Positions 35,460 to 58,881 are shown, counted from the first letter of the stretch. The stretch: 64,000 nucleotides of DNA from an uncultured Gammaproteobacteria bacterium (GCA_964496095.1 CAZBWU010000001.1:121474-185473), one strand, 5' to 3'. Made by a program: numbers and translations. The notes: generated by a model from the letters alone, not told the origin.

Positions 35460-37922
35460 TTATATGAGCGTCACACTTGCCACCTTGTCACCTTCTTCCT
35501 TAAATCTCATCAGGCGCACGCCTTGAGTAGCTCGGCCAGAAGTGGAGATAGAGGTAAATGGTAAGCGGATGACTTGGCCTTTGGCAGACATCAAGAGCAA
35601 ATCTTTTTCCTTCATTTCTACCGCGTCTACGACTTTGGCAAAAGTCAGGTTGCCGGTCTTGGCGGTAATTTCCGCGGTTTTAATACCGCTACCACCACGT
35701 CCCTGCACTTTATATTCATCAAGTTCAGTACGTTTACCGACACCATTTTCACCAACGGTTAGAAAAGCTAAGCTCTTATTTTTTGGATCAACGATGTCCA
35801 TACCAATTACTTCGTCACCACTCTTGAGGCGCATACCGCGAACACCGCTAGCTGTGCGTCCCATTTCGCGGACATCTTTTTCTTTGAAACGGATTGCCTG
35901 GCCTTGTTTGGTAGCTACCATGACTTCGTCGTTGCCAGTTGTTGGTTTGACCCATTCCAAGTTATCGTCTGGTTTGAGCTTGATAGCAATGAGGCCGCTA
36001 CGGCGAACATTGGCAAAGTCTGATAAGTTGGTTTTTTTGATATTGCCCCTGGTGGTAGTCATCATCAAGTATTTTATATTTGTCAGATCGCTCATACCAA
36101 GGAGGGCTGTTACTTTTTCATTTGGCGCTAATTGCAAGAAGTTAATGAGTGCTTGCCCTTTGGCAGTACGACTAGCTTGAGGAATGTCATAGGCCATAAG
36201 TTGGAAGACACGTCCACGATTGGTAAAGAAGAGCATGTTGTCGTGGGTGTTGGTTGAGACCAAATTCTGCACGCTTTCTTCTTCTTTGGTATTGGTACCA
36301 ATCACGCCCTTGCCACCACGAGATTGTTGGTGGAAAGTATCTGGAGGTAGGCGTTTGATATAGCCATCGGAAGTGACCATGACAATGGTCGCTTCATTGG
36401 GGATAAGATCTTCGGTGGTAAATTCTTTAATACCATGAGAAATAATCTGGGTGCGTCTTGGTTGGCCGTATTTTTCTTTGATAGCCAAAGTTTCATCTTT
36501 GATAATTTTTAGTATTCTAGCTTTGGAAGCGAGGATTGATTCAAGTTCTTTGATAAGCGCTCTTTTTTCTTTTAATTCATCTTCAATTTTTTGTCTTTCC
36601 AAATTGGCGAGTTGTTGTAATTTCATTTCCAAGATGGCAGTAGCTTGTCTGTCGGAAAATTTAAATTTAGAAATCAAATTTGCTTTGGCTTCTTCTTTGT
36701 CTTTGGAAGCGCGAATAGTTTTGATAATTAAATCAATTTTATCAAGCGCCATACTCAAGCCTTCCAAGATATGAGCGCGGTCCTGAGCTTTGGCTAAATC
36801 ATATTCAGTACGACGGCGAATGATAACTTGGCGATGTTTGATAAACTCTTCTAAAATATTTTTGATGGTCAGTACGCGTGGTTGGATACCATCAACAAGC
36901 GCCAACATGTTGAAGTGGAAAGTAGTTTGGAGTTCGGTCATCTGGAACAATTTGTTCAGCACTTTCTTTGGGTAAGCATCTTTTTTGAGATCAATTACAA
37001 CACGCACGCCGTCTTTGTTGGATTCGTCGCGCAAGTCTTTGATGCCTTCGATTTTTTTCTCTTGCACCAAGTCCGCGATTTTTTCTATAAGAGTGGCTTT
37101 ATTGGTATTATATGGAACTTCAGTAATAATAATTTTAAATTGATCAGCTTTGCCTTCTTGGATTTCGGCTTTGGCGCGCATGACAATACCGCCACGTCCA
37201 GTGGAGTAGGCAGTGAGAATGTCTTTTTTATTATAAATAATACCGCCGGTAGGGAAGTCTGGGCCTTGGATAAGGGTAGCCAGTTCTTCAATAGAGGTTT
37301 CAGGGTCATCAATTATCTTGGCCAAACCATTACATAACTCAGTAAGGTTGTGAGGGGCAATAGAAGTAGCCATACCAACCGCAATACCCATGGTACCGTT
37401 GAGGAGTAGGTTAGGAAGTTTGGCTGGCAAGATGGCTGGTTCGGTATGGGAACCGTCGTAGTTGGGGGTAAAAGCCACAGTGTCCTTATCAATATCAAAT
37501 AACATTTCTTCAGCCACAGCCGTTAGTTTGGCTTCGGTATAACGCATAGCAGCGGCGTTGTCGCCATCCATAGAACCAAAGTTTCCTTGACCATGCACCA
37601 GAGGATAGCGCATAGAAAAATCTTGCGCCATACGTACCATGGCATCATAGATAGAAGCATCGCCGTGAGGGTGGTACTTGGCCATCACTTCACCGACTAC
37701 GTGCGCGGATTTGCGGAATCTGGCAGTGTGTCGTAAACCAATATCCCACATGGCATAGAGAACACGACGGTGAACAGGTTTGAGACCATCACGGACATCT
37801 GGTAAAGCGCGAGAGACAATAACACTCATCGCATATTCCAAATACGAGGTCTGCATTTCTTGTACAAGTGAGGCTGGGGTGATGATGCCAATTTCTTGAG
37901 GGGGGATTAGTTTTTCTTGCAT
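35460..37922 (-). CDS. gyrA: DNA gyrase subunit A
   Basis: EMQTSYLEYAMSVIVSRALPDVRDGLKPVHRR; active-site region; C-terminal beta-pinwheel repeats. Confidence 0.97.
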   Translation of the reverse strand: MQEKLIPPQEIGIITPASLVQEMQTSYLEYAMSVIVSRALPDVRDGLKPVHRRVLYAMWDIGLRHTARFRKSAHVVGEVMAKYHPHGDASIYDAMVRMAQDFSMRYPLVHGQGNFGSMDGDNAAAMRYTEAKLTAVAEEMLFDIDKDTVAFTPNYDGSHTEPAILPAKLPNLLLNGTMGIAVGMATSIAPHNLTELCNGLAKIIDDPETSIEELATLIQGPDFPTGGIIYNKKDILTAYSTGRGGIVMRAKAEIQEGKADQFKIIITEVPYNTNKATLIEKIADLVQEKKIEGIKDLRDESNKDGVRVVIDLKKDAYPKKVLNKLFQMTELQTTFHFNMLALVDGIQPRVLTIKNILEEFIKHRQVIIRRRTEYDLAKAQDRAHILEGLSMALDKIDLIIKTIRASKDKEEAKANLISKFKFSDRQATAILEMKLQQLANLERQKIEDELKEKRALIKELESILASKARILKIIKDETLAIKEKYGQPRRTQIISHGIKEFTTEDLIPNEATIVMVTSDGYIKRLPPDTFHQQSRGGKGVIGTNTKEEESVQNLVSTNTHDNMLFFTNRGRVFQLMAYDIPQASRTAKGQALINFLQLAPNEKVTALLGMSDLTNIKYLMMTTTRGNIKKTNLSDFANVRRSGLIAIKLKPDDNLEWVKPTTGNDEVMVATKQGQAIRFKEKDVREMGRTASGVRGMRLKSGDEVIGMDIVDPKNKSLAFLTVGENGVGKRTELDEYKVQGRGGSGIKTAEITAKTGNLTFAKVVDAVEMKEKDLLLMSAKGQVIRLPFTSISTSGRATQGVRLMRFKEEGDKVASVTLI

Positions 37923-37924: not shown

Positions 37925-38176
37925 TTTATTAGCTTACCACCGCCATGAGGCGGGGTCCCGCTGTAGCGGGATTAGGTTGTAGCTTTTTAGCATGTTAGTG
38001 ATCAATGGTTTTCGTCTGTCATCCTGAATGAAATGAAGTATCCCTGTTAGTTTCGTTCGTTGTCATTCCCAACTTGATTGGGAATCCAGGGTGCGTTCGA
38101 ATTGTCTGGATTCCCGCTTTGGCGGGAATGACATTGTGCGGACAGAGATTCTTCGCTCTGCTCAGAATGACAGTTT
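37925..38176. repeat. Cluster of hairpins and TGTCAT(T/C)CC repeats (direct at 38016 and 38061; inverted GGGAATGACA at 38124) in the gyrA upstream region
   Basis: Hairpins CCGCCatgaGGCGG, TCCCGCTgtAGCGGGA, ATTCCCaacttgatTGGGAAT, GGGAATCCAG...CTGGATTCCC. Confidence 0.55.
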
Positions 38177-38521
38177 TTATAATGTTGAGGTGGTAGAACT
38201 ATTAGTTGTTGGCACGGTCGTGGTAGTAGAAATTGTAGTAGTTGGCGTGCTCGTGGTCGTCGCTTCAGTGACAATTTTATTTAAGACAGTTTTTAACTGA
38301 TTTTTTATTCTTTCATTTTTGATGCGGTCGGTTTCATTATTAAAAAGTTTATCCCAATCATCTTGTCTACTATCAATTATTTTTTTCTCAGGGGTTTCAT
38401 TCCAACGAAATGAGCCCAAGCTGATTTTGGTTGCCCACCCCCAGAGTGCGAGAATAATAATAGTAAAAAAACTTACCCATATCCAGAGCCATCGTTTGGC
38501 CGCGGCATTTGGTGTTGGCAT
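38177..38521 (-). CDS. Hypothetical membrane-anchored protein with Thr-rich C-terminal tail
   Basis: ORF with N-terminal TM; operon with upstream gene. Confidence 0.45.
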   Translation of the reverse strand: MPTPNAAAKRWLWIWVSFFTIIILALWGWATKISLGSFRWNETPEKKIIDSRQDDWDKLFNNETDRIKNERIKNQLKTVLNKIVTEATTTSTPTTTISTTTTVPTTNSSTTSTL

Positions 38522-38525
38522 ATTT

Positions 38526-39140
38526 TTATTCTTTTTCTAAAACCATTAATTTTGTTTCTTCTTGTGGTAGATCTTTTTTCTTGATAATAAATTTCTTTTC
38601 CGTCGCTTCCGGTTTTAACCCTAATTCTTTAATAAAAGCAGTGATTGGAGCTGCGTCAGGATCAGTATCACAATTATAGGCAATAGGAATAATAATTCTC
38701 GCTTCTAGGGTATTAGCTAGCTGGGCAGCTGTTTTGGCATCCAAGTAACTTTCGCCCCCTCCGACGGGTATAAATAAGATGTCAGGGCTCATGATTTTTT
38801 CCATTTCAGAGTTTTCTAGAGGTTTTTTGAGTCTGCCCAAATGTACCATGTTTAGGTTTTCGGCATTGAGCTTGTAGATAACACTACTTTCAAAACCTGG
38901 AAGAGAGTAAATCATGACATTTTTGACTTCCATTTCTCCTAAAGAATCAACGACAAAAGTGTCAGGGGAGATAGTAGAGGAATTGTCTTGTCCTTGAGAA
39001 AAGAGAGCAATGTCAGGACTGAAATTGCGTGGAAAGTCTCCCTTTTTAGGCTTGTAGGCATCAATTAAAATAATAACATCCTTATCTTGGTTTTTGGTCT
39101 GAAGTTTGATACAAGTTTGTCCGAGCCAGCTAATATGCAT
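38526..39140 (-). CDS. Hypothetical protein (weak resemblance to MBL-fold hydrolases; HxHxDH motif absent)
   Basis: 204-aa ORF; 4-nt spacing to the downstream gene. Confidence 0.4.
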   Translation of the reverse strand: MHISWLGQTCIKLQTKNQDKDVIILIDAYKPKKGDFPRNFSPDIALFSQGQDNSSTISPDTFVVDSLGEMEVKNVMIYSLPGFESSVIYKLNAENLNMVHLGRLKKPLENSEMEKIMSPDILFIPVGGGESYLDAKTAAQLANTLEARIIIPIAYNCDTDPDAAPITAFIKELGLKPEATEKKFIIKKKDLPQEETKLMVLEKE

Positions 39141-39353
39141 AAGAGTATTTTTTAGAAATAATATAAGGGTCAGAGCCTTGACTAAAGGGTCAAGTAATGA
39201 TAAAGTGAGATGACGATTGAGACTAGTTTAACATATCATTTATAGGGATACAAGGGTAGGCGACAAGGTCTGAGTATAACCCTTGACAAAACCCGAAAAA
39301 TAGTGTATATTAAGACGTTACTTAAATTAATAAAAATCATTAATAATATAGAT

Positions 39354-42300
39354 ATGCAAAAGCAAAACCTCGGGAAGTTTAAATCAGTGGCTAGTTTAGC
39401 CATTTTTGGCGTTATGGCTGTCGTTGGTATTTTAGGGACAAGTTTGGGCGCGAAGGCTGCGTTGATAAATGCAGACCAGGTATTAGGGCAATTAGATGAA
39501 ACTGGTCAGCCAAACTTTAATCAAGGTTTGACCAACAGTTCGTTTGTAAATAATTATGGCTTTAGTAGTCCATATGGGATAGCGATGGATAAAGTTGGTC
39601 ACCGCCTATTTGTGGCTGATAATCCTAATCATCGTGTCTTGGTATTTAGTCTTGGTAATGATAATAATTTATTAGATTTTCATGCAGACCATGTTTTAGG
39701 TCAAAATAATTTTAGTGATAGTACGTATAACAATGGTGGTAATCCAGGTATAGACGGTGACGGAGATGTAATAATTGTGCCAGGCGCAGGATCTTTGTAT
39801 TCTCCAACAGCTCTTTTATTTAATCCAGCTAGCAATACTCTGTATGTTGCTGATTCTGGCAATAATCGCGTTCTTGTCTTTGACGTTGCCGTTATCGATA
39901 ACGGTGAAGATGCGGGTAGTGTTTTAGGTCAGAATGATTTTATAAGTTTTTTCTCAAATAAGGGTGGTCTTATAGGTGTCAGTACTTTAAAAAATCCTTC
40001 TGGTTTGGCTTTCGATTCAACTAGTAAAATTTTGTATGTTTCTGATTCTGGCAATCACCGTGTCTTAGCTTTTGATGCCACCACTATTGTTAATGGTGAG
40101 GACGCAGTTAATGTCATAGGACAGGCTGATTTTTTAGGTGGTTCTTCTAATCAAGCTAGTATTGTTGGTACCTCCACTTTAAATAATCCTATTGGAATTT
40201 CTTTAAATCCTGCTAGTCATATATTATATGTTGCCGATTCTGGCAATCACCGTGTCTTAGCTTTTGATGCCACTACTATTGTTAACGGTGAGGATGCGGT
40301 CAGTGTATTAGGACAGGCTGATTTTTTAAGTGGCACACCAAATGGGGGTACTTTTGTAGGAGCGGGGACTATGTTCTCCCCTCAGTATGTTTCTTTTAAT
40401 TCAGTTAGTAATTATTTATTAGTTTCAGATTCTGTTAATAATCGTGTCTTAGCTTTTGATGCCACTACTATTGTTAACGGTGAGGATGCGGTCAATGTAT
40501 TAGGACAGGCTAATTTTGTTGGCCATACAGCCAACCGTGGTGGGGCTGTTGGAGCTGGGACAATGAGTTACCCTTCAGGTTTTTTTTATAATTCTGATAA
40601 CAGTAAGTTGTATGTGCTTGATGTAAATAATCACCGTGTGCTAATTTTTGATGTATCTATTCCTGCCGCTATTGATAATGGTGAAAATGCAATTTCAGTT
40701 TTAGGCCAATTGGACTCATTGGGCCTTCCAAGCTATAATCAAAAGCTTGCTAACAGTACTCTAGTAAGTGATTTTGGTTTTGATCCAAATTATACATATG
40801 GAGCCTCAGTTAGTGTGGACTCTGCTGGTCATAGATTGTTTGTTTCAGACACAGGGAATAATCGTGTCTTAGTTTTTAATTTGGATAATGATAATAAGCT
40901 AGTAGATTATCACGCTGATTATGTTTTGGGTCAGGCTGATTTTGTTAGTAATTATTCTAATCGAAATGGCGTGTTGGGAGCCGGAACTTTAAGTAATCCA
41001 ACAAGTATTTTTTTTAGTGCTAGTAATAATACCTTGTATGTAGCTGACAATGATAATTATCGTGTCCTTGCCTTTGATGTTGCTACCATTGCTAATGGTG
41101 AAAATGCTGTTAACGTTTTAGGTCAAACAGATTTTACAAGATTAGACAGAGAGTTGGGACCTGCAACTTTTAATTATCCAGGAGGCATTTCACTGGATAC
41201 TATTAAACATATTTTATATGTAGTTGACCCAGGTAATAATCGTGTCCTTGCCTTTGATGTAACTACTATTGATAATGGTGAAAACGCAGTAAATGTTTTA
41301 GGCCAAGCAGATTTTGTGAGCGGGGCTCCTAATCGTGATGGTGCTATTGGTGCCAATACATTGCGTCAACCCAACGAAATTTCATTAGATTCTACTAGAA
41401 ATATTTTGTATGTAGCGGACACTTTCAACAATCGTATCCTTGCCTTTGATGTAACTACTATTGATAATGGTGAAAACGCAGAAAATGTTTTAGGCCAAGC
41501 AGATTTTGTGAGTGGCGGCCTTGCTATTGGCGCCGGAAGAATGAATTGGCCTGTGGGTGTTTCTTACGACCCTGGTAGTAATGGATTATTTGTAACAGAT
41601 TTCTTTAACAAACGGGTTCTTGTCTTTGATGTCTCTACCATTGATAATGGTGAAAATGCGATTAATGTCTTAGGTCAAGCTGATTTTAATTCTGCTACAA
41701 ATGGTTTAGAAGTTAATAAAGATAAATTTAATGGGCCTGCTAGTTTAACCTTTAATACAGTTAATAATAATCTTTACGTGTTTGATAGGAATAATAATCG
41801 CATTTTAGCTTTTGACATTCTTAGTTTGCCTAGCGTTGCCTTATCTAAAGGTTCAGTCTTCGTAGCGTATAACCAAACATTAAATTCAGCTATAAACGGT
41901 AGGGGTGAAGTTACATATAGTGTGACTGCTGGAGCTTTGCCTACTGGATTAAGCCTAGTTGGTCGAGTAATTAGTGGTACTCCTACTGTAGCTGGAACAT
42001 TTAATTTTACAGTTACTGCTCTTGATACATTTACTAATGGTACTACCTATAATGATGCAAAAGCATTTACTATTATTGTTGACCCAGCTCAAGGTGGTAA
42101 CGGTGGTGGAGGCGGAGGGGGCGGCGGTGGAGGTGGTGCTGGTGGTGGAGGATCTCCTGTATTTAACGCTCCAGTTGGAGGATTTAGTGTGGCCGTACAA
42201 AGTGTAGTTGCTGGCACAAATCCTGCTCAAGTTAACCTAGTATTAAATGGTGGTACAGCTACTCGTATGGTTATTGCCAATACTCCAGATTTTGCTGGAG

Positions 42301-42860
42301 CTAGTCAAGTAGTATACAGAACAAGTACTGTACATACTTTGACTGCTGGAAATGGAATAAAAACTATCTACGCCAGATTCTTTGACTCTTCTGGTACTGC
42401 TTCGGTGGTTGTGACTGCAACTACTTCTATTACCAGTACTCCAGTTAGTGTTGCACCTGCGCCTATCACTCCGGAAGTTTTGGGTGTGAAAATTACTAGA
42501 CTTGATGAGTTGGTCGCCAAGCTTAAAGCTGGTCAAACAAATAGTGAAGTAATGGAAATGCAAAACGAACTGAAGAAAGCCGGTTATTTTGCTAAGACCT
42601 TCAAAGCCACCAAATACTATGGCGCTATGACTAAAACTGCTGTCCAGAAATATTTAGCTGATAAGAATAAAAAGCCAGTGGTTGCAAAGACTCTGGATGA
42701 ATTAGTCGCTACTCTCAAACTTGGTCAAAAGAGTGATTTGGTAAAACAATTGCAAACTGAACTCAAGAAATTGAAATTCTTCCCTGCTAATATAGTTGCT
42801 ACTGGTTATTATGGTCCAGCTACCAAAACAGCGGTAAATAAATATTTAGCTTCCAAGTAA
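39354..42860 (+). CDS. Secreted NHL-repeat protein (~15 NNRVL(A/V)FD repeats) with Gly-rich linker and two C-terminal peptidoglycan-binding-like (PG_binding_1-type) modules
   Basis: Signal peptide MQKQN...FGVMAVVGILG; repeat unit about 63 aa; C-terminal L..G..S..V..LQ.ELKK.G...G.YG..T..AV.KY modules; GTG at 39303 is an alternative start. Confidence 0.8.
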   Translation: MQKQNLGKFKSVASLAIFGVMAVVGILGTSLGAKAALINADQVLGQLDETGQPNFNQGLTNSSFVNNYGFSSPYGIAMDKVGHRLFVADNPNHRVLVFSLGNDNNLLDFHADHVLGQNNFSDSTYNNGGNPGIDGDGDVIIVPGAGSLYSPTALLFNPASNTLYVADSGNNRVLVFDVAVIDNGEDAGSVLGQNDFISFFSNKGGLIGVSTLKNPSGLAFDSTSKILYVSDSGNHRVLAFDATTIVNGEDAVNVIGQADFLGGSSNQASIVGTSTLNNPIGISLNPASHILYVADSGNHRVLAFDATTIVNGEDAVSVLGQADFLSGTPNGGTFVGAGTMFSPQYVSFNSVSNYLLVSDSVNNRVLAFDATTIVNGEDAVNVLGQANFVGHTANRGGAVGAGTMSYPSGFFYNSDNSKLYVLDVNNHRVLIFDVSIPAAIDNGENAISVLGQLDSLGLPSYNQKLANSTLVSDFGFDPNYTYGASVSVDSAGHRLFVSDTGNNRVLVFNLDNDNKLVDYHADYVLGQADFVSNYSNRNGVLGAGTLSNPTSIFFSASNNTLYVADNDNYRVLAFDVATIANGENAVNVLGQTDFTRLDRELGPATFNYPGGISLDTIKHILYVVDPGNNRVLAFDVTTIDNGENAVNVLGQADFVSGAPNRDGAIGANTLRQPNEISLDSTRNILYVADTFNNRILAFDVTTIDNGENAENVLGQADFVSGGLAIGAGRMNWPVGVSYDPGSNGLFVTDFFNKRVLVFDVSTIDNGENAINVLGQADFNSATNGLEVNKDKFNGPASLTFNTVNNNLYVFDRNNNRILAFDILSLPSVALSKGSVFVAYNQTLNSAINGRGEVTYSVTAGALPTGLSLVGRVISGTPTVAGTFNFTVTALDTFTNGTTYNDAKAFTIIVDPAQGGNGGGGGGGGGGGGAGGGGSPVFNAPVGGFSVAVQSVVAGTNPAQVNLVLNGGTATRMVIANTPDFAGASQVVYRTSTVHTLTAGNGIKTIYARFFDSSGTASVVVTATTSITSTPVSVAPAPITPEVLGVKITRLDELVAKLKAGQTNSEVMEMQNELKKAGYFAKTFKATKYYGAMTKTAVQKYLADKNKKPVVAKTLDELVATLKLGQKSDLVKQLQTELKKLKFFPANIVATGYYGPATKTAVNKYLASK

Positions 42861-42865
42861 TAAAA

Positions 42866-42897
42866 TAAAAAATCCATCCAAATTTGGGTGGATTTTT
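42866..42897 (+). terminator. Rho-independent terminator AAAAAATCCATCC...GGGTGGATTTTTT
   Basis: Same architecture as terminators at 44514 and 47942. Confidence 0.75.
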
Positions 42898-42914
42898 TGT
42901 TAGCATTTATAATT

Positions 42915-44498
42915 ATGCAAAAACAAAATCAGACAAGTTTAAAACAATTTATAAGAATAGCACTTTTTGGTGTTATGGTTATAATTGGTTTATTTGATTT
43001 TGGCAAATATTCGCAAGCGGTGTCTGCGCCGATTTATGTACAGTTTAGATCTATTATAAGCTCTGCTCAAGAAAATGTTAGTATTGTGCCGGTGCAGCTT
43101 ACATTTATTGGTTCTAACTCCAAAAGTGTTTATCATGACAAAATGGATGTTTATTACCAAATATATGGAACTGCCAGTTCTTTGGATTATTCTTTCAATG
43201 GGCAGGCTAATATTGGATCTGGAGTAATTCATATTCCGGCTGGTTCTGGTGATTACACTGTAAATCTTAGACAAACAAATGATTCGTTAGTTGAAAATGA
43301 TGAGCAAATAGTGATTAAAATTAGTTCTGTTGTTAGTAGAAACTTATCTATCTTTGCAACCCCGGTCAGAGTAGGAACAAATAATGTTTTTACTCACACT
43401 ATTATCAATGATGATTTGCCAACTAGTTTGGATATTACCAACGTCAATGATAATTCGACAGCCTCAAGAATATATTCTCCGGATTTAACATTTGTGCAAT
43501 TGGGTAAATGGAATTTTTTTGCATCTAATAATAATGTCATATTAAGCAAATTAACATTGCAGAGTATAAATCCAAACGGGGGAGCGGTTTTGACTAACTT
43601 AGCTAGTTTTAGTTCGTTAGCTTTGTATGATGACTCTAATTTCCTTGGGCTCGGTAGTTTTACTAATGGTGATCTTGTTTTTAGAAATTTTAGTTCTGTA
43701 ATTCAAGCCAATAGTTCGAAAGTTTATACTCTTAGAGGCTATATCAACGCTTCTGGTACAATGACCAGAAACACGCCTGTGGCTTTTGCAATAAAAAGTG
43801 ACAGTAGCGCTGATATATTAGCGACAGCTAGCACAGGGGCTTTGTTGGGTGTAGCTGATATTAATTATGATTCTGTAAGTAATGTCGGCCTAGCTGAGTC
43901 TAGATTTGCCAGATCCACAGTGTATATATTTCATGATGCTTATCCGGCTGTGTCTGCCATGTCGTTAGGAGAAAGTTTATCTTGGGATGTTCAAGCTAAG
44001 ATTTTTAAGTTTAGAGTTGCAAATGTCGGAACAGTAGATTTACGTATTTATGAAATCATACCCTCCTTTGATATATCGGGTTTAGTTTTTGGAAGTATTA
44101 GTGATTTTAGATTATATGAAGATGATGGTGTGGGAGGTCTAGGAACATACTTTGGCCAAAATAATATAACGGTGCAGGCCAATACCGCCAATTCAGTTTC
44201 TACTTTGTTTGATTATAGTAACGATCAAAATAATTCATTTGAAACTTTGACTATTGCTCCTGGTACCACTAAGACATTTATTATTACCGCGAACACCGCT
44301 AATATGATGGCTGGCAAAAGTACAGGCTCCATAAGGGTGTCTTCTAAGATTGTTGGCTCTACCGGTTGGAACGGAACTGCTTGGAATGTAGGTAATATTA
44401 GATATGGTTATACTCCCACCGATTGGTTTCCACAGGGTGTTTTTTCAGCCTCTGATTCTTATGATGTAGATGGGGGAGATTTGGTTTATACTTTGTAA
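42915..44498 (+). CDS. Secreted Calx-beta domain protein
   Basis: Signal peptide MQKQN...FGVMVIIGLF shared with the upstream gene; Calx-beta-like DY..F.G.......G...V...D...E.DE.I segment. Confidence 0.65.
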   Translation: MQKQNQTSLKQFIRIALFGVMVIIGLFDFGKYSQAVSAPIYVQFRSIISSAQENVSIVPVQLTFIGSNSKSVYHDKMDVYYQIYGTASSLDYSFNGQANIGSGVIHIPAGSGDYTVNLRQTNDSLVENDEQIVIKISSVVSRNLSIFATPVRVGTNNVFTHTIINDDLPTSLDITNVNDNSTASRIYSPDLTFVQLGKWNFFASNNNVILSKLTLQSINPNGGAVLTNLASFSSLALYDDSNFLGLGSFTNGDLVFRNFSSVIQANSSKVYTLRGYINASGTMTRNTPVAFAIKSDSSADILATASTGALLGVADINYDSVSNVGLAESRFARSTVYIFHDAYPAVSAMSLGESLSWDVQAKIFKFRVANVGTVDLRIYEIIPSFDISGLVFGSISDFRLYEDDGVGGLGTYFGQNNITVQANTANSVSTLFDYSNDQNNSFETLTIAPGTTKTFIITANTANMMAGKSTGSIRVSSKIVGSTGWNGTAWNVGNIRYGYTPTDWFPQGVFSASDSYDVDGGDLVYTL

Positions 44499-44513
44499 TT
44501 AGATAAAATAAAT

Positions 44514-44546
44514 AAAAATCCAGCCCCAAAAGGGCTGGATTTTTTG
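44514..44546 (+). terminator. Rho-independent terminator AAAAATCCAGCCC-caaaa-GGGCTGGATTTTTT
   Basis: Perfect 9-bp stem + T6. Confidence 0.8.
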
Positions 44547-44555
44547 TTCATTTTG

Positions 44556-44592
44556 TGGTATAATACAATTATATGAATTAAAAATTCATATA
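44556..44592 (+). promoter_or_regulatory. Extended -10 promoter TGgTATAAT followed by perfect palindrome ATATGAATT-aaa-AATTCATAT (operator-like) upstream of the CAP-domain gene
   Basis: Read directly. Confidence 0.5.
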
Positions 44593-44684
44593 AACTCATT
44601 CGCTCGGAAATACTCAGTTCAATATTTATAATTCGTAATCGATTATAAATATCTCACCGACTATTTCACTCGCTCATTTCGATT

Positions 44685-45641
44685 ATGAAAAAAATACTAA
44701 AAAAGTACTTTATTTCTCATAAAGAAAATAATTTTCATGCCCACCTACTTCACACGAAGCGGGCAGTTTTTTATGGCTTGGTTTTTTTATTGACCAAGAT
44801 TATTTTGGTTACTTTTGTTTTGTTTTTACCCGTTGGCGTATTTGTCTTGCCTGATGTCTTGGCCGAAGAACAAAAACAAATTTTGGCTTTGACCAATCAG
44901 CTTAGACACAATAAAAAACTAGCAGTATTATCCGAGATGGACAAGTTAAACCTATCAGCTCAAAACAAAGCAGAGGATATGGCCAATAATAATTATTTTG
45001 CTCATTCTATTGATGATAAGAGTTTGTCTACCTGGCTACAAGGAGCAGGTTATAAGTATGAAGTAGCGGGGGAGAATCTGGCAGTTGGTTTTAGTAGTGC
45101 CCAAGATATATTAACTGCTTGGGAAAAAAGCCCAACCCATTATGCAAATTTAATTGACCCAGACTTCAAAGATTTGGGGATTGGTTTGGCTGGAGGAGTA
45201 TATAAAGACCAACCCACGGTTTTTATTGTTCAACATTTTGCTACGCCAGTTGCAGTAGTCAAAGAGGAGCCGGCTAAAAAAATAATTGGCAAAAAATCTT
45301 CGGTGGTGGAAATAAAAGTTGAAAAAGATCTTATTCCAGAGCCTGATGCGCAAGAACCACAGTTGGTTTTGGGAGGAAAAATAAAAAACGAAGAATCTCA
45401 AAATCCCATAGTTAGTCAAAATCAATCTTCACCTGTTGAAAAATATATCCAAGCTAAGAATGTTTTATCACCGCTGACAAATATTTTTGCTGTATCACAA
45501 AATATTTATTTTGGAGCTATGCTTTTTTTTGCTTTTGTGTTACTTTTAAACATAGTCATTCATTTGCGCAAACAGCACTACCATATTATAGCTCAAACTA
45601 GTGGCTTAATTGCTTTGCTGTTTATTTTTTGGAAATTTTAA
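44685..45641 (+). CDS. CAP/SCP (YkwD-like) domain protein with N- and C-terminal TM anchors
   Basis: CAP motifs ...NNNYFAHS...GENLA...AWEKSPTHYANL. Confidence 0.75.
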   Translation: MKKILKKYFISHKENNFHAHLLHTKRAVFYGLVFLLTKIILVTFVLFLPVGVFVLPDVLAEEQKQILALTNQLRHNKKLAVLSEMDKLNLSAQNKAEDMANNNYFAHSIDDKSLSTWLQGAGYKYEVAGENLAVGFSSAQDILTAWEKSPTHYANLIDPDFKDLGIGLAGGVYKDQPTVFIVQHFATPVAVVKEEPAKKIIGKKSSVVEIKVEKDLIPEPDAQEPQLVLGGKIKNEESQNPIVSQNQSSPVEKYIQAKNVLSPLTNIFAVSQNIYFGAMLFFAFVLLLNIVIHLRKQHYHIIAQTSGLIALLFIFWKF

Positions 45642-45659
45642 TTATATAATTGTATACAT

Positions 45660-47561
45660 ATGCGAAAAAAAATATTAGCGATCATTTCAATTTTGAGTCT
45701 GCTGTTGACGTTAGTGCCGGGTATAAAAACCATTCAGGCTGCCCCGGGGGGGCAGATAGTTGGATTTGATGGTATAAGCAGTCAGGCTGTTGAAGGTGAA
45801 ATAAGATATGTTAAATTTAAACCAGAAGTCACGATGAGCCCTTCTGATTATATTGATGTTCATTATACAATAAGTGGTACGGCTTCAGATTCAGATTATT
45901 ATTTTAATGATGGTACCGGTATAGCTAGAATTAAAAAGGATCAATTATCATTTCCTTTATATTCTGTTGATGAAGGCGGGCTTGAGAACGACGAAAAGGT
46001 AATTATTACTATTACGAGCGCTACTGATCAAAGTGGGCAAGCAGTAGATTTAAAGCCATTTAGTAAGGTATATACGCATACTATTTGGGATTATAACGGA
46101 CCTCCAAAATTGAGTTTTTTGTATGATACTGCCAGTTCAAACGAGAACGGCAATCCCGGCGTTTTTACTGTCTATCTTTCTCGAGCCACAAACGCTAATG
46201 TTACATTCAAGTGGGGGTTTATTGGGCTTCCTTTTTTTACAGCTACTAATGAGTCAACGGTTATTAATGGCCACACCTTTCCTCCAGATTTAACAACCCC
46301 ACCCACAGGTGTTTTTCAGGATGCAGTCATACCGGCGGGGCAGACTTCAATATCTATACCCTTAAATATTCAGGATGATAATCTTATTGAAGATAATGAA
46401 ACATTTCAACTTTCATTAGGAGCAGCTGCGACTATACATAATGCCGTTGCCGGTTCAGTGTTGAGTCAGACTTATACGATTATAGATAATGAAGGAATAC
46501 CTACTATTTCTTTCCAATCAGGCAATGCCTCTGGTTCAGAAAATCTTACTACTATTAATACAACCGTAGTACTTTCAGAAGCTTTATTATCTGATACTAC
46601 TTTTTCTCTAGTGGTAGATCAAGCCCATAGTACGGCAATAGCGGGTGGTCAGGATTGGAATTTGCCCTTAGCAGTGGCTCCACTTACTATTCCGGCTGGT
46701 GCTACCTCGGCTAATGTTGCCTTTACTGTCGTTAATGACAATATTCAAGAGGGGGATGAAACTGCCACGATTTCTATTACAAATATCCTTAATGCAGGAG
46801 TTGACGTATCTGCAGGCCAGAACATGTCTTTTACTTATACAATTTTAGATAATGATACGCCAGCGCCAGTTGTGCCACCGGTCGTTGTACCTCCAGGAGG
46901 AGGTAATGGAGGGGGCGGAGGTTCGACATTACCGAACAACGGCGTTTGTCCTGTCCTAAATCCCGGAGATATGATTAAAGTTGCAGGTAATCCAGCTATC
47001 TATGTAGTCAATCGATTTAATAAAATCATGTATTTCCCTTCGGGAGACGAATATAAGAGTTGGAATGAAGGCGAAGGTTATGGTGGGTATATTACTGTTA
47101 CTCAAAATTGTTTTGATAATGGTTTGCAAGTGCCGAGCGGTCCACCAGCTGGAGTGAATTATCGTTCAGGCTCATATATAATTCAAAAAGAAAATACCAG
47201 CCAATTGTATGCGGTATTACCAAATAACACTATCGCAAAAATTAGCACAGCTGATGCGCAAGCTTTGTATGGTACAAATTATAAAGTAATGACTGTGAAG
47301 TTTATTTTCTGGTCAAATTATATTAACACGGCTTCAGAAATTTCTGGTAAAGCTCATAGTGGAATGTTGGTAAGAAAAGATAATAAAGTTTGGTATGTGG
47401 ATGGAAATAATTTACGAGAAGTGCCAGTCAATCAAATGTCTGTCAATCGTTTCAAATCCGTTTTTGTGCATACTGTGCCAGCTTCTTATCTGACAGGTTT
47501 TGGTACAGGCGCGCCGATTGATGGTGAAGTCACAAGTCTTACTAACAGAACACAATTATAA
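45660..47561 (+). CDS. Secreted multi-Calx-beta domain protein with Gly-rich linker and C-terminal repeat domain
   Basis: Signal peptide; at least 3 Calx-beta-like modules (DY..F...G......DE...I.I). Confidence 0.65.
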   Translation: MRKKILAIISILSLLLTLVPGIKTIQAAPGGQIVGFDGISSQAVEGEIRYVKFKPEVTMSPSDYIDVHYTISGTASDSDYYFNDGTGIARIKKDQLSFPLYSVDEGGLENDEKVIITITSATDQSGQAVDLKPFSKVYTHTIWDYNGPPKLSFLYDTASSNENGNPGVFTVYLSRATNANVTFKWGFIGLPFFTATNESTVINGHTFPPDLTTPPTGVFQDAVIPAGQTSISIPLNIQDDNLIEDNETFQLSLGAAATIHNAVAGSVLSQTYTIIDNEGIPTISFQSGNASGSENLTTINTTVVLSEALLSDTTFSLVVDQAHSTAIAGGQDWNLPLAVAPLTIPAGATSANVAFTVVNDNIQEGDETATISITNILNAGVDVSAGQNMSFTYTILDNDTPAPVVPPVVVPPGGGNGGGGGSTLPNNGVCPVLNPGDMIKVAGNPAIYVVNRFNKIMYFPSGDEYKSWNEGEGYGGYITVTQNCFDNGLQVPSGPPAGVNYRSGSYIIQKENTSQLYAVLPNNTIAKISTADAQALYGTNYKVMTVKFIFWSNYINTASEISGKAHSGMLVRKDNKVWYVDGNNLREVPVNQMSVNRFKSVFVHTVPASYLTGFGTGAPIDGEVTSLTNRTQL

Positions 47562-47577
47562 AATTTAGTTTTTAGGT

Positions 47578-47934
47578 ATGAATAATAAAAAAATAATTTT
47601 TATAGGTGTGGTAGTAGTGGTGGTAGTCCTTGGTATTTATATGTTAAAAAATAATCCAAAAGTAGATAAGGATGATAAATTAAGAACGTCTACATACTCT
47701 ATTCCTATGGGAGCGACCAATGCTCCAGACCCAATTGTAATGGTCAGAATTTCTAGGGAAAAAGTAGATGCCTTGCTTAAAGAAGTAAAACAAGGTCAGA
47801 CAAGTGACAAGGTGCTTGAATTACAAACAGAGTTGCAAAAACTTGGTTATATAGTAAAGAGTTGGAAGCCGACTAAATTTTATGGAACTGTGACAGCCGG
47901 CGCTGTGACCAAATATCAAGCGTCAAATAAATAA
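47578..47934 (+). CDS. Small membrane-anchored protein with one PG_binding_1-like module
   Basis: TM at N-terminus; the module matches the C-terminal repeats of the NHL protein. Confidence 0.6.
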   Translation: MNNKKIIFIGVVVVVVVLGIYMLKNNPKVDKDDKLRTSTYSIPMGATNAPDPIVMVRISREKVDALLKEVKQGQTSDKVLELQTELQKLGYIVKSWKPTKFYGTVTAGAVTKYQASNK

Positions 47935-47941
47935 AAAAAGT

Positions 47942-47976
47942 AAAAAATCCACCTTTAAATCAGGGTGGATTTTTTG
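47942..47976 (+). terminator. Rho-independent terminator AAAAAATCCACC...GGGTGGATTTTTT
   Basis: Read directly. Confidence 0.75.
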
Positions 47977-48054
47977 TTTCTAGCATTGACAAAATGACTT
48001 AGAGTGGCTATTATACCTCTATAAGAACCGAGAAATCGGCGATTTTGCGTATTT

Positions 48055-48107
48055 ACCCTGTTAAATGTCGCTTTGCGACACCCGACCTTGTCGGGATTTA
48101 ACAGGGT
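48055..48107. repeat. Nested-hairpin palindromic element (outer ACCCTGTTAAAT/ATTTAACAGGGT; inner GTCGCtttGCGAC and CCCGACcttGTCGGG)
   Basis: Read directly; shares a CCCGAC...GTCGGG hairpin with the element at 23779. Confidence 0.55.
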
Positions 48108-48124
48108 AAACCTATTAATAAATT

Positions 48125-50023
48125 ATGTCGTTATTTCAATTAAAATCTAAATTTCAACCCGCGGGGGATCAGCCCGAAGCTATCAAGAAATTGATGGCTA
48201 GTTTGGATAAAGGAAATAGGTACCAAACATTGCTGGGCGTGACTGGGTCTGGTAAAACTTTTACTGTGGCCAATGTAATTAAAGATTTTGATCGGCCCGT
48301 TCTGATTATGGCGCCAAATAAAGCCTTAGCGGCGCAGTTGTATCGTGAATACAAAAATTTCTTTCCGGAAAATTCGGTAAATTATTTTGTGTCATACTAT
48401 GATTACTATCAACCTGAGGCATACATGCCAACCAGTGACACCTACATTGAAAAAGAATCAATGATCAATGAAGAGATAGATAGGTTGCGTCACCAGGCCA
48501 CCAGCGCCTTAATGTCTCGCAAAGATGTGATTGTCGTGGCGTCTGTGTCTTGTATTTATAATCTCGGCGTGCCGATAAATTATTTTGATTCAGCTTTACA
48601 TTTGGAAGTTGGTCAGCCTATGGTGCGAGCGGACTTGATGCGACAACTTATAAAAATTCAGTTTGCGCGTACGCCTGGATTATTAGAAAGAGGTAAATTT
48701 CGTGTGCGAGGCGAGGTTTTTGAGATTGCGCCAGCCTCTGAGAAGTTTGTTTATCGAATAGAAATAGTAAATCAAAAAATTGCGGAGATTGGCGTGGTAG
48801 ATGCGTTGACCAAAACTATCAAAGAACAAATGAAAGAGGCAATAATTTTTCCGGTAAAACATTTTGTCTCTTCTGAACCACAGATGAAAGAAGCTTTGAA
48901 AGAAATAAAAACAGAACTTAAAGAACGCTTGGCCTATTTTAAGAAAAAAGAATTATATCTAGAAGCTGAGCGACTAGAGCGTCGCACTCGTTATGATTTA
49001 GAGATGTTAAAAACTTTGGGTTTTTGTCATGGGATTGAAAATTATTCTAGGCATTTGGCAGGTAAGTTGGTAGGCGAGGCGCCAGATACTTTACTTTCAT
49101 ATTTTCCTTGGAAAAAAGATAAAGACGGTAAAAATATTCCTGATTTCCTTACGATTATGGATGAGTCGCACATTGGTCTGCCTCAGGTGCGAGGTATGTA
49201 CGCGGGGGATAGAAGTCGTAAAGATACTCTAGTTCAGTATGGCTGGAGATTGCCTTCGGCTCTTGATAATCGCCCGCTTAAGTTTGATGAATTTGAAAAA
49301 AGAGTAGGACAAGTTGTTTTTACTTCGGCAACTCCGGGAGATTTTGAGATGAGCCATTCGGCAGTAGTGGCTGAGCAGGTCATTCGTCCGACAGGTCTCA
49401 TTGATCCGCCGATAGAAGTGCGTCCAGTATTTAATAAACAAACAAACAGAGGCCAGGTGGATGATATTATTAGCGAGATTGAAACAATTATTAAAAACAA
49501 AGAAAGAGTGATTATTAATGTCCTGACCAAAAAAATGGCCGAGGAATTATCTGAATTTTTGAAACAAAAAAATTATCCAGCCAATTATTTGCATTCAGAT
49601 GTAAAAACTTTGGAACGTACAGAAATTCTTATGGCTTTTCGTGAAGGTAAGTTCAATGTGCTAATTGGTGTTAATCTTTTGCGTGAAGGTTTGGATTTAC
49701 CAGAGGTGACTCTTGTTGCCATTATGGATGCTGATAGGGAAGGGTTTTTACGCAGTGAAGAATCCTTGATGCAGACCATGGGTAGAGCTGCCAGAAATGT
49801 AAAAGGCAAAGTTATTTTGTACGCCGACAGTATTACAAGATCTATGAAAGCGGCGATGAAAGAAGTGGATAGGCGCCGTAAGGTGCAGATAGCCTATAAT
49901 ACCAAACATGGTATTACGCCACAGACAACAAATAAAGATATAGAACAGTTTTTGGATATGGCTACTGTGGATTTGAATTTGCCGGTACGGGAGAAGCGGT
50001 CTGGGAGAAAAAGTAAAAAATAA
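48125..50023 (+). CDS. uvrB: Excinuclease ABC subunit B
   Basis: GVTGSGKTFT; helicase motifs; beta-hairpin region. Confidence 0.95.
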   Translation: MSLFQLKSKFQPAGDQPEAIKKLMASLDKGNRYQTLLGVTGSGKTFTVANVIKDFDRPVLIMAPNKALAAQLYREYKNFFPENSVNYFVSYYDYYQPEAYMPTSDTYIEKESMINEEIDRLRHQATSALMSRKDVIVVASVSCIYNLGVPINYFDSALHLEVGQPMVRADLMRQLIKIQFARTPGLLERGKFRVRGEVFEIAPASEKFVYRIEIVNQKIAEIGVVDALTKTIKEQMKEAIIFPVKHFVSSEPQMKEALKEIKTELKERLAYFKKKELYLEAERLERRTRYDLEMLKTLGFCHGIENYSRHLAGKLVGEAPDTLLSYFPWKKDKDGKNIPDFLTIMDESHIGLPQVRGMYAGDRSRKDTLVQYGWRLPSALDNRPLKFDEFEKRVGQVVFTSATPGDFEMSHSAVVAEQVIRPTGLIDPPIEVRPVFNKQTNRGQVDDIISEIETIIKNKERVIINVLTKKMAEELSEFLKQKNYPANYLHSDVKTLERTEILMAFREGKFNVLIGVNLLREGLDLPEVTLVAIMDADREGFLRSEESLMQTMGRAARNVKGKVILYADSITRSMKAAMKEVDRRRKVQIAYNTKHGITPQTTNKDIEQFLDMATVDLNLPVREKRSGRKSKK

Positions 50024-50063
50024 ACTACTTATACTTTTTGTCACCAAAAAGTATCAAAAATTG

Positions 50064-58865: not shown

Positions 58866-58881
58866 AATTAGCTAGTAGTAC

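What the first reader, a model, noticed from the sequence alone, without database searches (positions are those of the whole stretch)
39354..47976. Accessory island of secreted cell-surface proteins with shared leaders and paralogous terminators
Five consecutive genes encode an NHL beta-propeller array with PG-binding modules, two Calx-beta proteins, a CAP/SCP protein and a small PG-binding protein. The first two share a distinctive signal peptide, MQKQN...FGVM. Three of the genes end in near-identical terminators (AAAAATCCANCC...GGNTGGATTTTTT). The PG_binding_1-like module is reused between genes. This points to cassette duplication and shuffling, as expected for host-interaction or attachment proteins of an episymbiont.
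Basis: partly seen in the sequence, partly recalled or inferred. Interest (0 to 1): 0.55.

Follow-up and report, generated by a model that had tools for sequence, protein, structure and literature searches.

The report
Variable surface-protein locus with swapped heads
Between two housekeeping genes of an uncultured Magasanikbacteria (CPR) genome lies a five-gene block of exported, cell-wall-tethered proteins whose outer "head" domains have been exchanged between close relatives while leader and anchor stay the same; this is a real but familiar kind of surface-protein diversity locus.

Summary
Window 39354-47977 carries five + strand genes. g1 has 12 NHL repeats, an Ig domain, a poly-Gly linker and two PG_binding_1 modules. 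g2 has a Calx-like N-domain and a 350-aa C-terminal module with no Pfam family. g3 is a membrane-anchored CAP/SCP protein. g4 is a Calx-beta protein. g5 is a small PG_binding_1 protein. The shared MQKQN leader, the reused PG_binding_1 module and three similar terminator hairpins are all present.

The organism is a Candidatus Magasanikbacteria (UvrB 81-88% identical to named MAGs). In 12 related genomes the backbone gyrA-MBL...uvrB-uvrA is conserved, but the interval between MBL and uvrB ranges from 1.4 kb to more than 10 kb. It holds CAP alone, none of the five genes, or a different order and mix of modules. A close relative (L082, 86-91% DNA identity) keeps g1's leader and anchor (83% and 92% aa) but carries a Calx-like head instead of the NHL head. 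Its g4 head is 59% identical next to a 99.5% identical C-terminal domain. Breakpoints fall at the leader or gene start and in the Gly-rich linkers.

A role in host attachment remains inference. There are no mobile-island marks. Kind: a modular wall-anchored surface-protein locus, new member of a known kind.

The parts
39283..39311 (+). sigma-70-like promoter TTGACA-17-TATATT in front of g1; it overlaps the upstream GTG at 39303, which argues for ATG 39354 as the true start
   Evidence: conserved in L082
39354..42860 (+). g1, 1168 aa: signal peptide, 12 NHL repeats (enough for two six-bladed propellers, inferred), He_PIG Ig domain, poly-Gly linker, unnamed ~105-aa domain X, two PG_binding_1 modules
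39354..39461 (+). g1 leader MQKQN...AKA|A (36 codons); 5' limit of the head swap against L082
   Evidence: 30/36 aa identical, identity ends at the predicted cleavage site
39462..42122 (+). NHL + He_PIG head cassette (2.66 kb), replaced in L082 by a 1.54-kb Calx-like head
42092..42151 (+). GGN-repeat DNA encoding the poly-Gly linker; 3' breakpoint of the g1 head swap; length differs by 18 nt from L082; similar repeat in g4
   Evidence: (family D7)
42153..42857 (+). anchor module: domain X + two PG_binding_1 repeats, 92% identical to the C-terminus of P0038 in L082; the same module ends Calx and DUF285 proteins in relatives
42867..42898 (+). terminator hairpin T1 (AAAAAATCCATCC AAATTT GGGTGGATTTTTT)
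42915..44498 (+). g2, 527 aa: MQKQN leader, Calx-like N-domain (aa ~40-175), 350-aa C-terminal module (aa 172-527) with no Pfam family
43422..44495 (+). C-terminal module of g2 ('CTD-350'): all-beta, at least two beta-sandwich domains; always C-terminal in its homologues, behind NHL, LamG, PKD or Calx-like heads
   Evidence: (pLDDT 94)
44514..44545 (+). terminator hairpin T2, reads as a terminator on both strands; orthologous copy in L002, and positional equivalents upstream of CAP in the other relatives that have CAP
44556..44564 (+). extended -10 promoter TGgTATAAT for g3-g4-g5; a TGGTATAAT/TGGTATAGT/TGGTATACT box is kept upstream of CAP in most relatives that have CAP
44566..44684 (+). 119-nt structured 5' leader inserted between the -10 box and the CAP start codon; absent in L082; member of a repeated leader family of Magasanikbacteria
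44685..45641 (+). g3, 318 aa: N-terminal membrane anchor, CAP/SCP domain (YkwD-like), C-terminal hydrophobic segment; the most conserved gene of the block (60-70% in species-level relatives, 97.5% in L082)
45660..47561 (+). g4, 633 aa: signal peptide, Calx-beta head (to ~aa 405), Pro/Gly linker, 205-aa C-terminal domain with no Pfam or PDB match
45660..46885 (+). g4 head allele: 55-75% nt and 59% aa identity to L082, between flanks that are 93-100% identical
47578..47934 (+). g5, 118 aa: N-terminal membrane anchor + one PG_binding_1 module, paralogous to the g1 C-terminus
47942..47975 (+). terminator hairpin T3; it aligns with T1 beyond the hairpin (…GGGTGGATTTTTTGT..TAGCATT), following the paralogous PG_binding modules
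47986..48014 (+). uvrB promoter TTGACA-17-TATTAT; right-hand border of the variable interval, conserved in relatives

Best explanation
This is a variable cell-envelope locus at a fixed chromosomal site (between the MBL-fold gene next to gyrA and uvrB) of a Candidatus Magasanikbacteria genome.

It encodes modular proteins that are exported by Sec leaders and then held at the cell surface in one of three ways. One is a C-terminal 'X + 2x PG_binding_1' wall-binding module (g1; g5 is a minimal version). The second is membrane anchors (g3, g5). The third is other C-terminal modules of unknown partner (the g2 CTD-350 and the g4 C-terminal domain). The outward-facing heads are beta-rich binding folds: an NHL propeller array and Calx-beta arrays here, and also DUF285/BspA-like repeats in relatives.

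Diversity arises by homologous recombination that replaces head modules. The conserved leader or gene start on one side, and the Gly-rich linker plus anchor on the other, serve as homology arms. Whole-gene gain, loss and reordering add to this.

Transcription is inferred to run from a promoter before g1, through T1 at a reduced level into g2 (no promoter of its own was found), to stop at T2, to restart at an extended -10 promoter for g3-g4-g5, and to stop at T3.

Shown: the gene and domain content, the variability between genomes, and the module-boundary breakpoints. Inferred: export, wall binding, the recombination mechanism, the operon structure, and a role in adhesion to a host cell or substrate.
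For: - Domain content.
- Taxon: UvrB is 81-88% identical to MAGs named Magasanikbacteria.
- Backbone conserved, interval variable. The MBL-to-uvrB distance is 1.4 kb (L007, CAP only), 1.9 kb (L006), 1.6-2.4 kb with none of the five genes (L009, L010), 5.9-8.6 kb with Calx-PG, DUF285-PG, g2-like and CAP genes (L003, L004, L011), and more than 10 kb with another order (L008, L050, L002).
- Island orthologues are 28-70% identical, against 75-94% for the flanking genes.
- Head swap in g1 against L082: leader 30/36 aa identical, anchor 92% over 237 aa, heads unrelated; breakpoints at the signal-peptide cleavage site and inside the poly-Gly run.
- Head swap or allele in g4: head 59% aa, C-terminal domain 99.5%, flanks 93-100% nt.
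- Combinatorial heads and tails. NHL occurs with X-PGx2 (g1), with CTD-350 (L002/P0009), or with no anchor (L008, L050). CTD-350 occurs behind NHL, LamG, PKD and Calx-like heads.
- dN/dS is 0.13-0.46 in the g1 C-terminus, g2, g4 and g5, 0.08 in CAP, and 0.01-0.02 in MBL and uvrB.
- N-terminal hydrophobic segments and AxA-type cleavage sites are present.
- Terminators and promoters.
Against: - No experiment or transcript data; export and wall binding rest on sequence motifs only.
- Only one close relative (L082) documents the swaps. Which lineage changed is not known, and no donor sequences were found.
- The leader-to-NHL junction of g1 is present only in the window assembly. The independent Logan contig L001 starts inside the NHL array.
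- All dN/dS values are below 1, so diversifying selection is not shown.
- The lifestyle of this organism (episymbiont or not) is not known from these data.
- CAP/YkwD-like and PG-binding proteins could serve wall metabolism rather than adhesion.
Confidence: 0.68

Rival explanations
1. A housekeeping cell-wall maintenance locus. The CAP/YkwD-like protein and the PG_binding_1 proteins would act in peptidoglycan remodelling or division. The NHL and Calx parts would be enzymatic or structural wall components, with no role in contacting other cells.
For: - CAP is the conserved member of the site, present in 10 of the 12 related loci at 60-70% identity in species-level relatives.
- It weakly matches YkwD and a divisome-associated lipoprotein model, both below cutoff.
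- PG_binding_1 is typical of wall hydrolases; the weak SleB matches cover only that module.
- NHL regions also score against lactonase/arylesterase-type propeller families.
Against: - No catalytic domain was found in any of the five proteins.
- Everything except CAP is dispensable in close relatives.
- Heads are exchanged between unrelated folds on the same anchor. That is hard to reconcile with a fixed enzymatic role.
Confidence: 0.15
2. A programmed antigenic-variation system. One expressed gene would be rewritten within a single cell line from silent head cassettes stored elsewhere in the genome, as with pilE/pilS or Campylobacter fetus sap.
For: Conserved 5' leader and 3' anchor around variable heads. 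Repeated Gly-linker DNA sits at the breakpoints.
Against: - No silent copies of any module lie outside the block in the 64-kb window.
- No invertase or recombinase is adjacent.
- The differences seen are between genomes that are 9-14% diverged, not within one population.
- The rest of the genome could not be searched.
Confidence: 0.07
3. A horizontally acquired mobile genomic island inserted between MBL and uvrB.
For: Presence or absence varies among relatives. NHL-array proteins occur in many phyla.
Against: - GC content is 0.34-0.42, like the flanks.
- The only tRNA is 12 kb away.
- There is no integrase or transposase ORF and no flanking direct repeat.
- Relatives carry related modules at the same site in other combinations, which points to in-place turnover.
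Confidence: 0.05
4. The apparent mosaic is an artefact of metagenome assembly or binning, with chimeric contigs from co-occurring strains.
For: The Logan contig identical to the window (L001) breaks inside the NHL repeat array of g1, and the g1 protein itself was not returned from the protein collection.
Against: - The independent assembly L001 matches the window at 100% protein identity (tblastn) from g1 residue 701 to uvrB.
- L082 is an uninterrupted contig from MBL to uvrB.
- All reading frames stay open across the breakpoints.
- The same module combinations recur in unrelated MAGs.
Confidence: 0.04

Closest known systems
S-layer cassette / cell-wall-protein (CWP) locus of Clostridioides difficile
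   Same: It is a chromosomal block of exported proteins that share a wall-binding module and carry different outer domains. It lies at a fixed site and is exchanged between lineages by homologous recombination. It is reported as a recombination hot spot encoding antigenic surface proteins (PMC7677006).
   Different: The anchor here is PG_binding_1 (x2) behind a poly-Gly linker, not CWB2 (own knowledge for CWB2). No S-layer protein or secA2 was identified. The swaps seen here replace single head modules inside genes as well as whole genes. The organism is an uncultured CPR bacterium.
Mosaic choline-binding surface proteins of Streptococcus pneumoniae (PspA/PspC type) - own knowledge, not tested here
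   Same: A conserved leader and a conserved C-terminal wall-attachment repeat region flank highly variable, recombining heads, with a Pro-rich linker at the boundary.
   Different: The anchor chemistry differs (choline on teichoic acid versus a peptidoglycan-binding module). The head folds differ (alpha-helical versus beta-propeller/Calx). There is no evidence here for immune selection.
NHL-repeat beta-propeller surface proteins of CPR and other bacteria (source names 'NHL repeat-containing protein', 'beta-propeller fold protein YncE')
   Same: The g1 head has 5488 relatives at E<=1e-10, the best at 48% identity. Many come from Magasanikbacteria, Parcubacteria, Uhrbacteria, Yanofskybacteria and Peregrinibacteria. 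Several have PG_binding_1, and others have SLH, Fn3 or T9SS tails.
   Different: No close orthologue exists (48% at most). The window version combines 12 NHL repeats, He_PIG, a Gly linker, domain X and PGx2.
Hypervariable surface-protein gene of a Gracilibacterium (PMC6851277)
   Same: It is a CPR genome with one locally hypervariable gene for an exported, membrane-anchored protein that the authors relate to attachment.
   Different: There the variation is in a short PTD repeat tract within one population. Here it is exchange of whole head domains between diverged genomes.
Bacterial CAP/SCP proteins of the YkwD type
   Same: g3 matches Pfam CAP above cutoff and PDB 4ifa, an 'extracellular protein containing a SCP domain'.
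   Different: g3 scores below the NCBIfam YkwD cutoff (79 against 171 bits). It also has an N-terminal membrane anchor and a C-terminal hydrophobic segment.

Membership tests
NHL-repeat beta-propeller proteins (Pfam PF01436) | Repeated ~40-60-aa NHL units scoring above the Pfam cutoff, in multiples that close a propeller | tested here: met
   g1 scores 171 bits against a cutoff of 20. There are 12 units with period ~64 aa. Closure into two six-bladed propellers is inferred, not modelled.
PG_binding_1 wall-binding module (Pfam PF01471) | Sequence match above the gathering score | tested here: met
   g1 has two stretches at 49.6 bits, and g5 scores 28.1 bits; the cutoff is 23.
PG_binding_1 wall-binding module (Pfam PF01471) | Actual binding to peptidoglycan | not testable with these tools
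   Needs a pull-down of the purified module with sacculi.
Calx-beta domain proteins (Pfam PF03160) | Match above the gathering score | tested here: met
   This row is for g4: 43.7 bits against a cutoff of 27, two stretches.
Calx-beta domain proteins (Pfam PF03160) | Match above the gathering score, applied to g2 | tested here: not met
   No Pfam hit for g2, even at E<=5 on the isolated N-domain. The only link is transitive similarity to g4 domains. g2 is called 'Calx-like' here and is not filed as a member.
CAP/SCP superfamily (Pfam PF00188); YkwD subfamily (TIGR02909) | Match above the curated cutoffs | tested here: inconclusive
   Pfam CAP is met (55.1 against 21.1 bits). YkwD is not met (79.1 against 171 bits).
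Sec-exported proteins with cleavable signal peptide | Basic N-region, hydrophobic core, small-x-small cleavage site | tested here: met
   By inspection and hydropathy only. Predicted sites are AKA|A in g1, SQA|V in g2 and IQA|A in g4. g3 and g5 have uncleaved-looking anchors. No dedicated predictor was available.
Rho-independent (intrinsic) terminators | GC-containing hairpin directly followed by a T-run, placed after a stop codon | tested here: met
   T1-T3 start 6-15 nt after the stops of g1, g2 and g5. Sub-threshold Rfam hits fall on the terminator parts of models. Termination activity was not tested.
Mobile genomic island | Integrase or transposase, tRNA or direct-repeat borders, deviant composition | tested here: not met
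Recombining surface-protein cassette locus (C. difficile S-layer-cassette type) | Fixed site, conserved flanks, alternative contents among relatives, mosaic divergence along the locus | tested here: met
   dS ranges from 0.04 (g5) to 0.68 (g4) within 3 kb.
Recombining surface-protein cassette locus (C. difficile S-layer-cassette type) | Products form or decorate the outermost cell layer | not testable with these tools
   Needs proteomics of envelope fractions or cryo-ET.
Diversity-generating retroelement targets | Variation confined to a short C-terminal variable region at adenine-templated sites, with a template repeat and reverse transcriptase nearby | tested here: not met
   Divergence spans the entire 1.2-2.7-kb heads and includes indels. 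No template-like repeat lies within 38000-49000. A reverse transcriptase was not searched for outside the block.

The most novel reading that the evidence does not exclude
The conserved leader and the GGN-repeat linker plus anchor may not be mere leftovers of duplication. They could be kept as built-in homology arms. Any head domain acquired from the population could then be slotted into a ready-made export-and-anchor frame. That would give CPR cells a way to change partner or substrate specificity, much as phages swap receptor-binding tips. The Pfam-less CTD-350 of g2 would be a second, alternative attachment frame.
Probability: 0.2. Interest if true: 0.6.

Novelty: new member of a known kind. 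Interest (0 to 1): 0.38.

Why it matters
How ultrasmall CPR bacteria recognise and hold on to other cells is largely unknown. Candidate surface proteins are usually listed without evidence that they vary in a meaningful way. Here the variation is mapped to module boundaries at a fixed, easily found chromosomal site (gyrA-MBL | ... | uvrB-uvrA). That gives a concrete marker locus for strain typing and for testing partner specificity in Magasanikbacteria. It also gives two defined attachment modules (X+2xPG_binding_1 and CTD-350) for biochemical tests. The general principle, modular wall-anchored proteins diversified by recombination, is well known from Firmicutes, so the conceptual gain is modest.

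Tried and rejected
- Single-sequence AlphaFold of g2 gave pLDDT 36 and was discarded.
- The word-index homologue search for g2 found only itself and one fragment. The exhaustive HMMER search was needed.
- The Foldseek PDB search of the CTD-350 model returned only generic tandem Ig-like sandwiches (pilins, integrin legs, transglutaminase C-domains, SpaP/SspB C-domains) at TM 0.2-0.37. No specific family can be named.
- The g4 C-terminal domain and domain X have no Pfam or PDB sequence match.
- The metagenome scan with CAP found no close relatives, best 51%.
- Exact-protein look-ups of g2, g3 and g5 returned only the same genome.
- Rfam gave nothing above gathering score.
- Literature searches found no description of this locus.
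- A separate promoter for g2 was looked for. The only candidate (TTGGGT-18-TATAAT, 42884-42913) would start transcription after the ATG, so it was rejected. Read-through of T1 is assumed instead.
- The mobile-island, DGR and silent-cassette readings were rejected or left at low probability (see rivals and membership tests).

Full report
**What is there**

Window 39354-47977 holds five genes on the + strand. They lie between gyrA (35460-37922, -), a small membrane-protein ORF, an MBL-fold hydrolase gene (38526-39140, -) and uvrB-uvrA (48125-52711, +).

Pfam results:
- g1 (1168 aa) matches NHL (171 bits), He_PIG and two PG_binding_1 stretches.
- g3 matches CAP.
- g4 matches Calx-beta in two stretches.
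- g5 matches PG_binding_1.
- g2 has no family at all.

g1 has 12 NHL units with a ~64-aa period. That is enough for two six-bladed propellers, which is an inference.

Hydropathy and N-terminal sequences suggest cleavable signal peptides in g1, g2 and g4, and membrane anchors in g3 and g5.

- The leaders of g1 and g2 are 44% identical over 27 aa and both begin MQKQN. No other exported protein of the window starts this way.
- The C-terminal PG_binding region of g1 is 45% identical to g5 over 81 aa.
- Three hairpins (T1 42867-42898, T2 44514-44545, T3 47942-47975) follow the stops of g1, g2 and g5. They share A-tract, TCCANCC, loop, GGNTGGA, T-tract. The repeat finder groups them as one 39-nt family.
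- The arm motif is enriched over shuffles: 9 hits against 3.6 expected, and 1 of 100 shuffles reaches 9.

Three qualifications apply to the terminators.
- The gyrA terminator (35412-35441) has the same AAAAATCC...GGATTTTT frame, so part of the likeness is a lineage habit.
- T2 has an ortholog at the same place in L002 (as well as in L082). The other CAP-bearing relatives also have a terminator-type hairpin, usually followed by a TGGTATAAT-type promoter box, upstream of CAP.
- T1 and T3 align beyond the hairpin, and each follows a paralogous PG_binding module. That fits duplication of 'module plus terminator'.

One further correction: only the first ~140 residues of mature g2 are Calx-like, and only through similarity to g4.

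**Whose genome**

The UvrB protein finds its best relatives (81-88% identity) in MAGs named Candidatus Magasanikbacteria, a CPR/Patescibacteria lineage. Other CPR groups sit near 70%.

**Is it accessory?**

I searched the five proteins and the flanking proteins against 80 uvrB loci with 10-kb flanks. I then called ORFs in the 11 Magasanikbacteria loci.

The backbone gyrA, small ORF, MBL ... uvrB, uvrA is kept wherever the contig reaches far enough. Outside this lineage no locus shows gyrA, MBL or the five genes upstream of uvrB.

The interval between MBL and uvrB differs greatly:

| Locus | Interval | Content |
|---|---|---|
| L007 | 1.4 kb | CAP only |
| L006 | 1.9 kb | CAP plus an unrelated ORF on the minus strand |
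| L009, L010 | 1.6-2.4 kb | none of the five; an ADP-ribosylglycohydrolase in L010 |
| L003, L004, L011 | 5.9-8.6 kb | Calx-X-PGx2, DUF285-PGx2 and CAP next to uvrB, plus a g2-like gene in L004 and L011 |
| L008, L050 | more than 10 kb | Calx-PG, Calx-PG, CAP, g4-like, NHL |
| L002 | more than 10 kb | window-like order, but the NHL array is fused directly to the g2-type C-terminal module, and a second NHL-PG gene lies next to uvrB |

Island orthologues are 28-70% identical, while the flanking proteins are 75-94%. The block is therefore not a conserved core unit.

It carries no marks of a mobile element either. GC content is like the flanks, the only tRNA is 12 kb away, and there is no integrase or bordering repeat.

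**Direct evidence for module exchange**

The exhaustive search with g2 returned P0038. Its leader is almost that of g1 but it continues into a Calx-like domain.

Its contig, L082, is a close relative of the window (86-91% DNA identity). Its gene order is MBL | P0038 | g2 | CAP | g4 | g5 | uvrB.

- g1 and P0038 share 30 of 36 leader residues and 92% of the last 237 residues (domain X plus two PG_binding_1).
- Between those parts lie 2.66 kb of NHL+He_PIG in the window and 1.54 kb of Calx-like sequence in L082.
- DNA identity ends at the codons for AKA|A, the predicted cleavage site, and resumes inside the GGN repeat that encodes the poly-Gly linker.

A second case lies in g4.
- The head (45660-46885) is 55-75% identical at DNA level and 59% at protein level.
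- The C-terminal 205 residues differ at one position, and the surrounding DNA is 93-100% identical.
- The left limit falls in the 18-nt spacer after CAP. The right limit falls in the Pro/Gly linker.
- The g4 linker DNA resembles that of g1 (family D7).
- The window and L082 g4 heads are almost as far apart (59%) as either is from the L002 head (53%). Their C-terminal domains are 100% against 77%.

Synonymous divergence along the locus runs from 0.04 (g5) to 0.68 (g4), which is a recombination mosaic. dN/dS is 0.13-0.46 in the g1 C-terminus, g2, g4 and g5, 0.08 in CAP, and 0.01-0.02 in MBL and uvrB. That is relaxed or diversifying pressure, but nowhere above 1.

**The unnamed C-terminal module of g2**

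- Residues 172-527 recur at the C-terminus of at least 71 representative proteins at E<=1e-10.
- It sits behind NHL+He_PIG (P0009, identical in length to the 1249-aa NHL protein of the same 128,755-bp contig as L002), two LamG domains (P0033), PKD (P0006) or Calx-like heads.
- With a 33-sequence alignment AlphaFold gave a confident all-beta model with pLDDT 94.
- Foldseek against the PDB found only generic tandem Ig-like sandwiches from pilins, integrin legs, transglutaminases and streptococcal adhesin C-domains, at low TM-scores.

I read it as a stalk or attachment module that alternates with X+PGx2. Its partner is unknown.

**How it most likely works**

- Shown: the domain make-up, the variable content at a fixed site, and breakpoints at module borders.
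- Inferred from established knowledge of Sec signal peptides and PG_binding_1 modules: the proteins are exported and held on the wall or membrane, with beta-rich binding heads facing outward.
- Inferred from the breakpoint positions: homologous recombination between conserved leaders or gene starts and conserved linker-anchor segments replaces heads, with gene gain, loss and reordering on top.
- Inferred from consensus sites: transcription starts at TTGACA-17-TATATT (39283-39311), is attenuated at T1 before g2 (no separate promoter found), stops at T2, restarts at the extended -10 box 44556-44564 for g3-g5, and stops at T3 before the uvrB promoter.

Adhesion to a host cell is the natural guess for a CPR bacterium, but nothing here tests it.

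**Comparison with known systems**

The closest analogue in logic is the S-layer cassette / cell-wall-protein locus of C. difficile. That is a recombination hot spot of surface proteins with a shared wall-binding module (PMC7677006).

NHL arrays with PG_binding_1, SLH or other tails are common in CPR and other phyla: 5488 relatives, the best at 48% identity. A hypervariable surface-protein gene is described for a Gracilibacterium (PMC6851277).

I found no paper on this locus. I file it as a new member of a known kind.

**Limits**

- Only one close relative documents the swaps.
- The leader-NHL junction is not covered by the independent contig L001.
- No donor sequences were found.
- Two structure libraries were unavailable.

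**Seen on the way**

The 119 nt between the CAP promoter and its ATG (44566-44684) are missing in L082. They belong to a family of structured leaders found only in the Magasanikbacteria loci, most of them ending at a start codon, and they lack a Shine-Dalgarno sequence. Details are under 'noticed in passing'.

Noticed in passing
window 44566-44684 and 52731-52818 (weak: 58880-58975, 13528-13576); L050 16291-16413 and 20360-20446; L007 17488-17610 (-) and 21282-21371; L008 19275-19362; L011 17672-17758; L006 6009-6096 and 6099-6168: A repeated structured 5' leader of ~88 nt, with a 120-nt form that carries an extra palindrome. Layout: hairpin 1 (TATATGGGCTAAAGCCCATATA), ACTCATTCGCTC, hairpin 2 with co-varying arms, CTCACTCATTTCG, 3-4 nt, then in most copies an ATG. 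It sits in front of unrelated genes: CAP, exported proteins, an S1-domain protein and uvrA. It has no Shine-Dalgarno sequence. 12 of 19 pairs show compensatory changes. It was found only in the Magasanikbacteria loci, with none in ~1.1 Mb of other CPR loci, and it is not in Rfam. The copy before CAP is absent in the close relative L082, so the element moves or is lost. It could be a translation-initiation leader or a small mobile insertion.
   Followed up: partly
window 47986-48124; same position in L002-L011, L050, L082: The uvrB 5' region has a conserved promoter and a conserved start of the transcript, with a small hairpin CCGAGAAATCGG (CCGGGAAACCGG in some relatives). In some genomes the ATG follows at once. 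In others, including the window (48052-48110, fold z = -6.3), a structured insertion of 60-250 nt of differing sequence lies in between. The window and L050 share the outer stem CCCTGTTAAAT...ATTTAACAGGG around different inner hairpins.
   Followed up: partly
window 43422-44495 (g2 residues 170-527): A 350-aa C-terminal module without any Pfam family, present in at least 71 cluster representatives and always at the C-terminus. Conserved positions include W321, Y328, Y330 and S344-D345-S346-Y347 (numbering of the 358-aa module, window 43422-44495). The AlphaFold model is confident and all-beta. It is a candidate for a new domain family definition.
   Followed up: partly
L002 1-3588 (= P0009, 1249 aa): In this relative the NHL array plus He_PIG is fused in one ORF to the g2-type C-terminal module. 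The window instead has 'linker, X, PGx2, stop, T1, leader, Calx-like domain' between the two parts. Either a ~1.4-kb segment was inserted in the window lineage or it was deleted in L002.
   Followed up: partly
L003 6814-8847, L004 4680-6704, L011 4644-6674: Relatives carry a DUF285 (BspA-like repeat) protein with the same two PG_binding_1 modules in this interval. It is a third head type that is absent from the window.
   Followed up: partly
L006 2893-3426 (-), L009 8620-9177 (-), L010 7727-8290 (-): Genomes with a short interval share a 177-187-aa ORF on the opposite strand, beginning with a motif of the form M..ALW/Y.xLGxIxYLNTGYWxG. It has no Pfam match (tested on the L006 copy) and was not among the window proteins compared. 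L010 also has an ADP-ribosylglycohydrolase here.
   Followed up: no
window 35412-35441: A hairpin that reads as a terminator on both strands lies just past the end of gyrA, with the same AAAAATCC...GGATTTTT frame as T1-T3.
   Followed up: no
window 39354-42860; L001: The full g1 protein was not returned by the protein-collection search with its own head. The one Logan contig of this genome that was shown (L001; two further contigs carrying the same protein were not displayed) starts inside the NHL array, about 700 residues into g1. This may reflect assembly trouble at the 192-nt repeats or strain variation at the head.
   Followed up: no
island proteins of L003, L004, L008, L011, L050, L082 (N-termini): About 15 of ~24 non-CAP exported proteins encoded in this interval across relatives start with MQ (MQKQAKK, MQKKVNR, MQKVRTK, MQKAIKN, MQDNKLS and others). 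The leader type is therefore a shared trait of the locus, not only of g1 and g2.
   Followed up: partly
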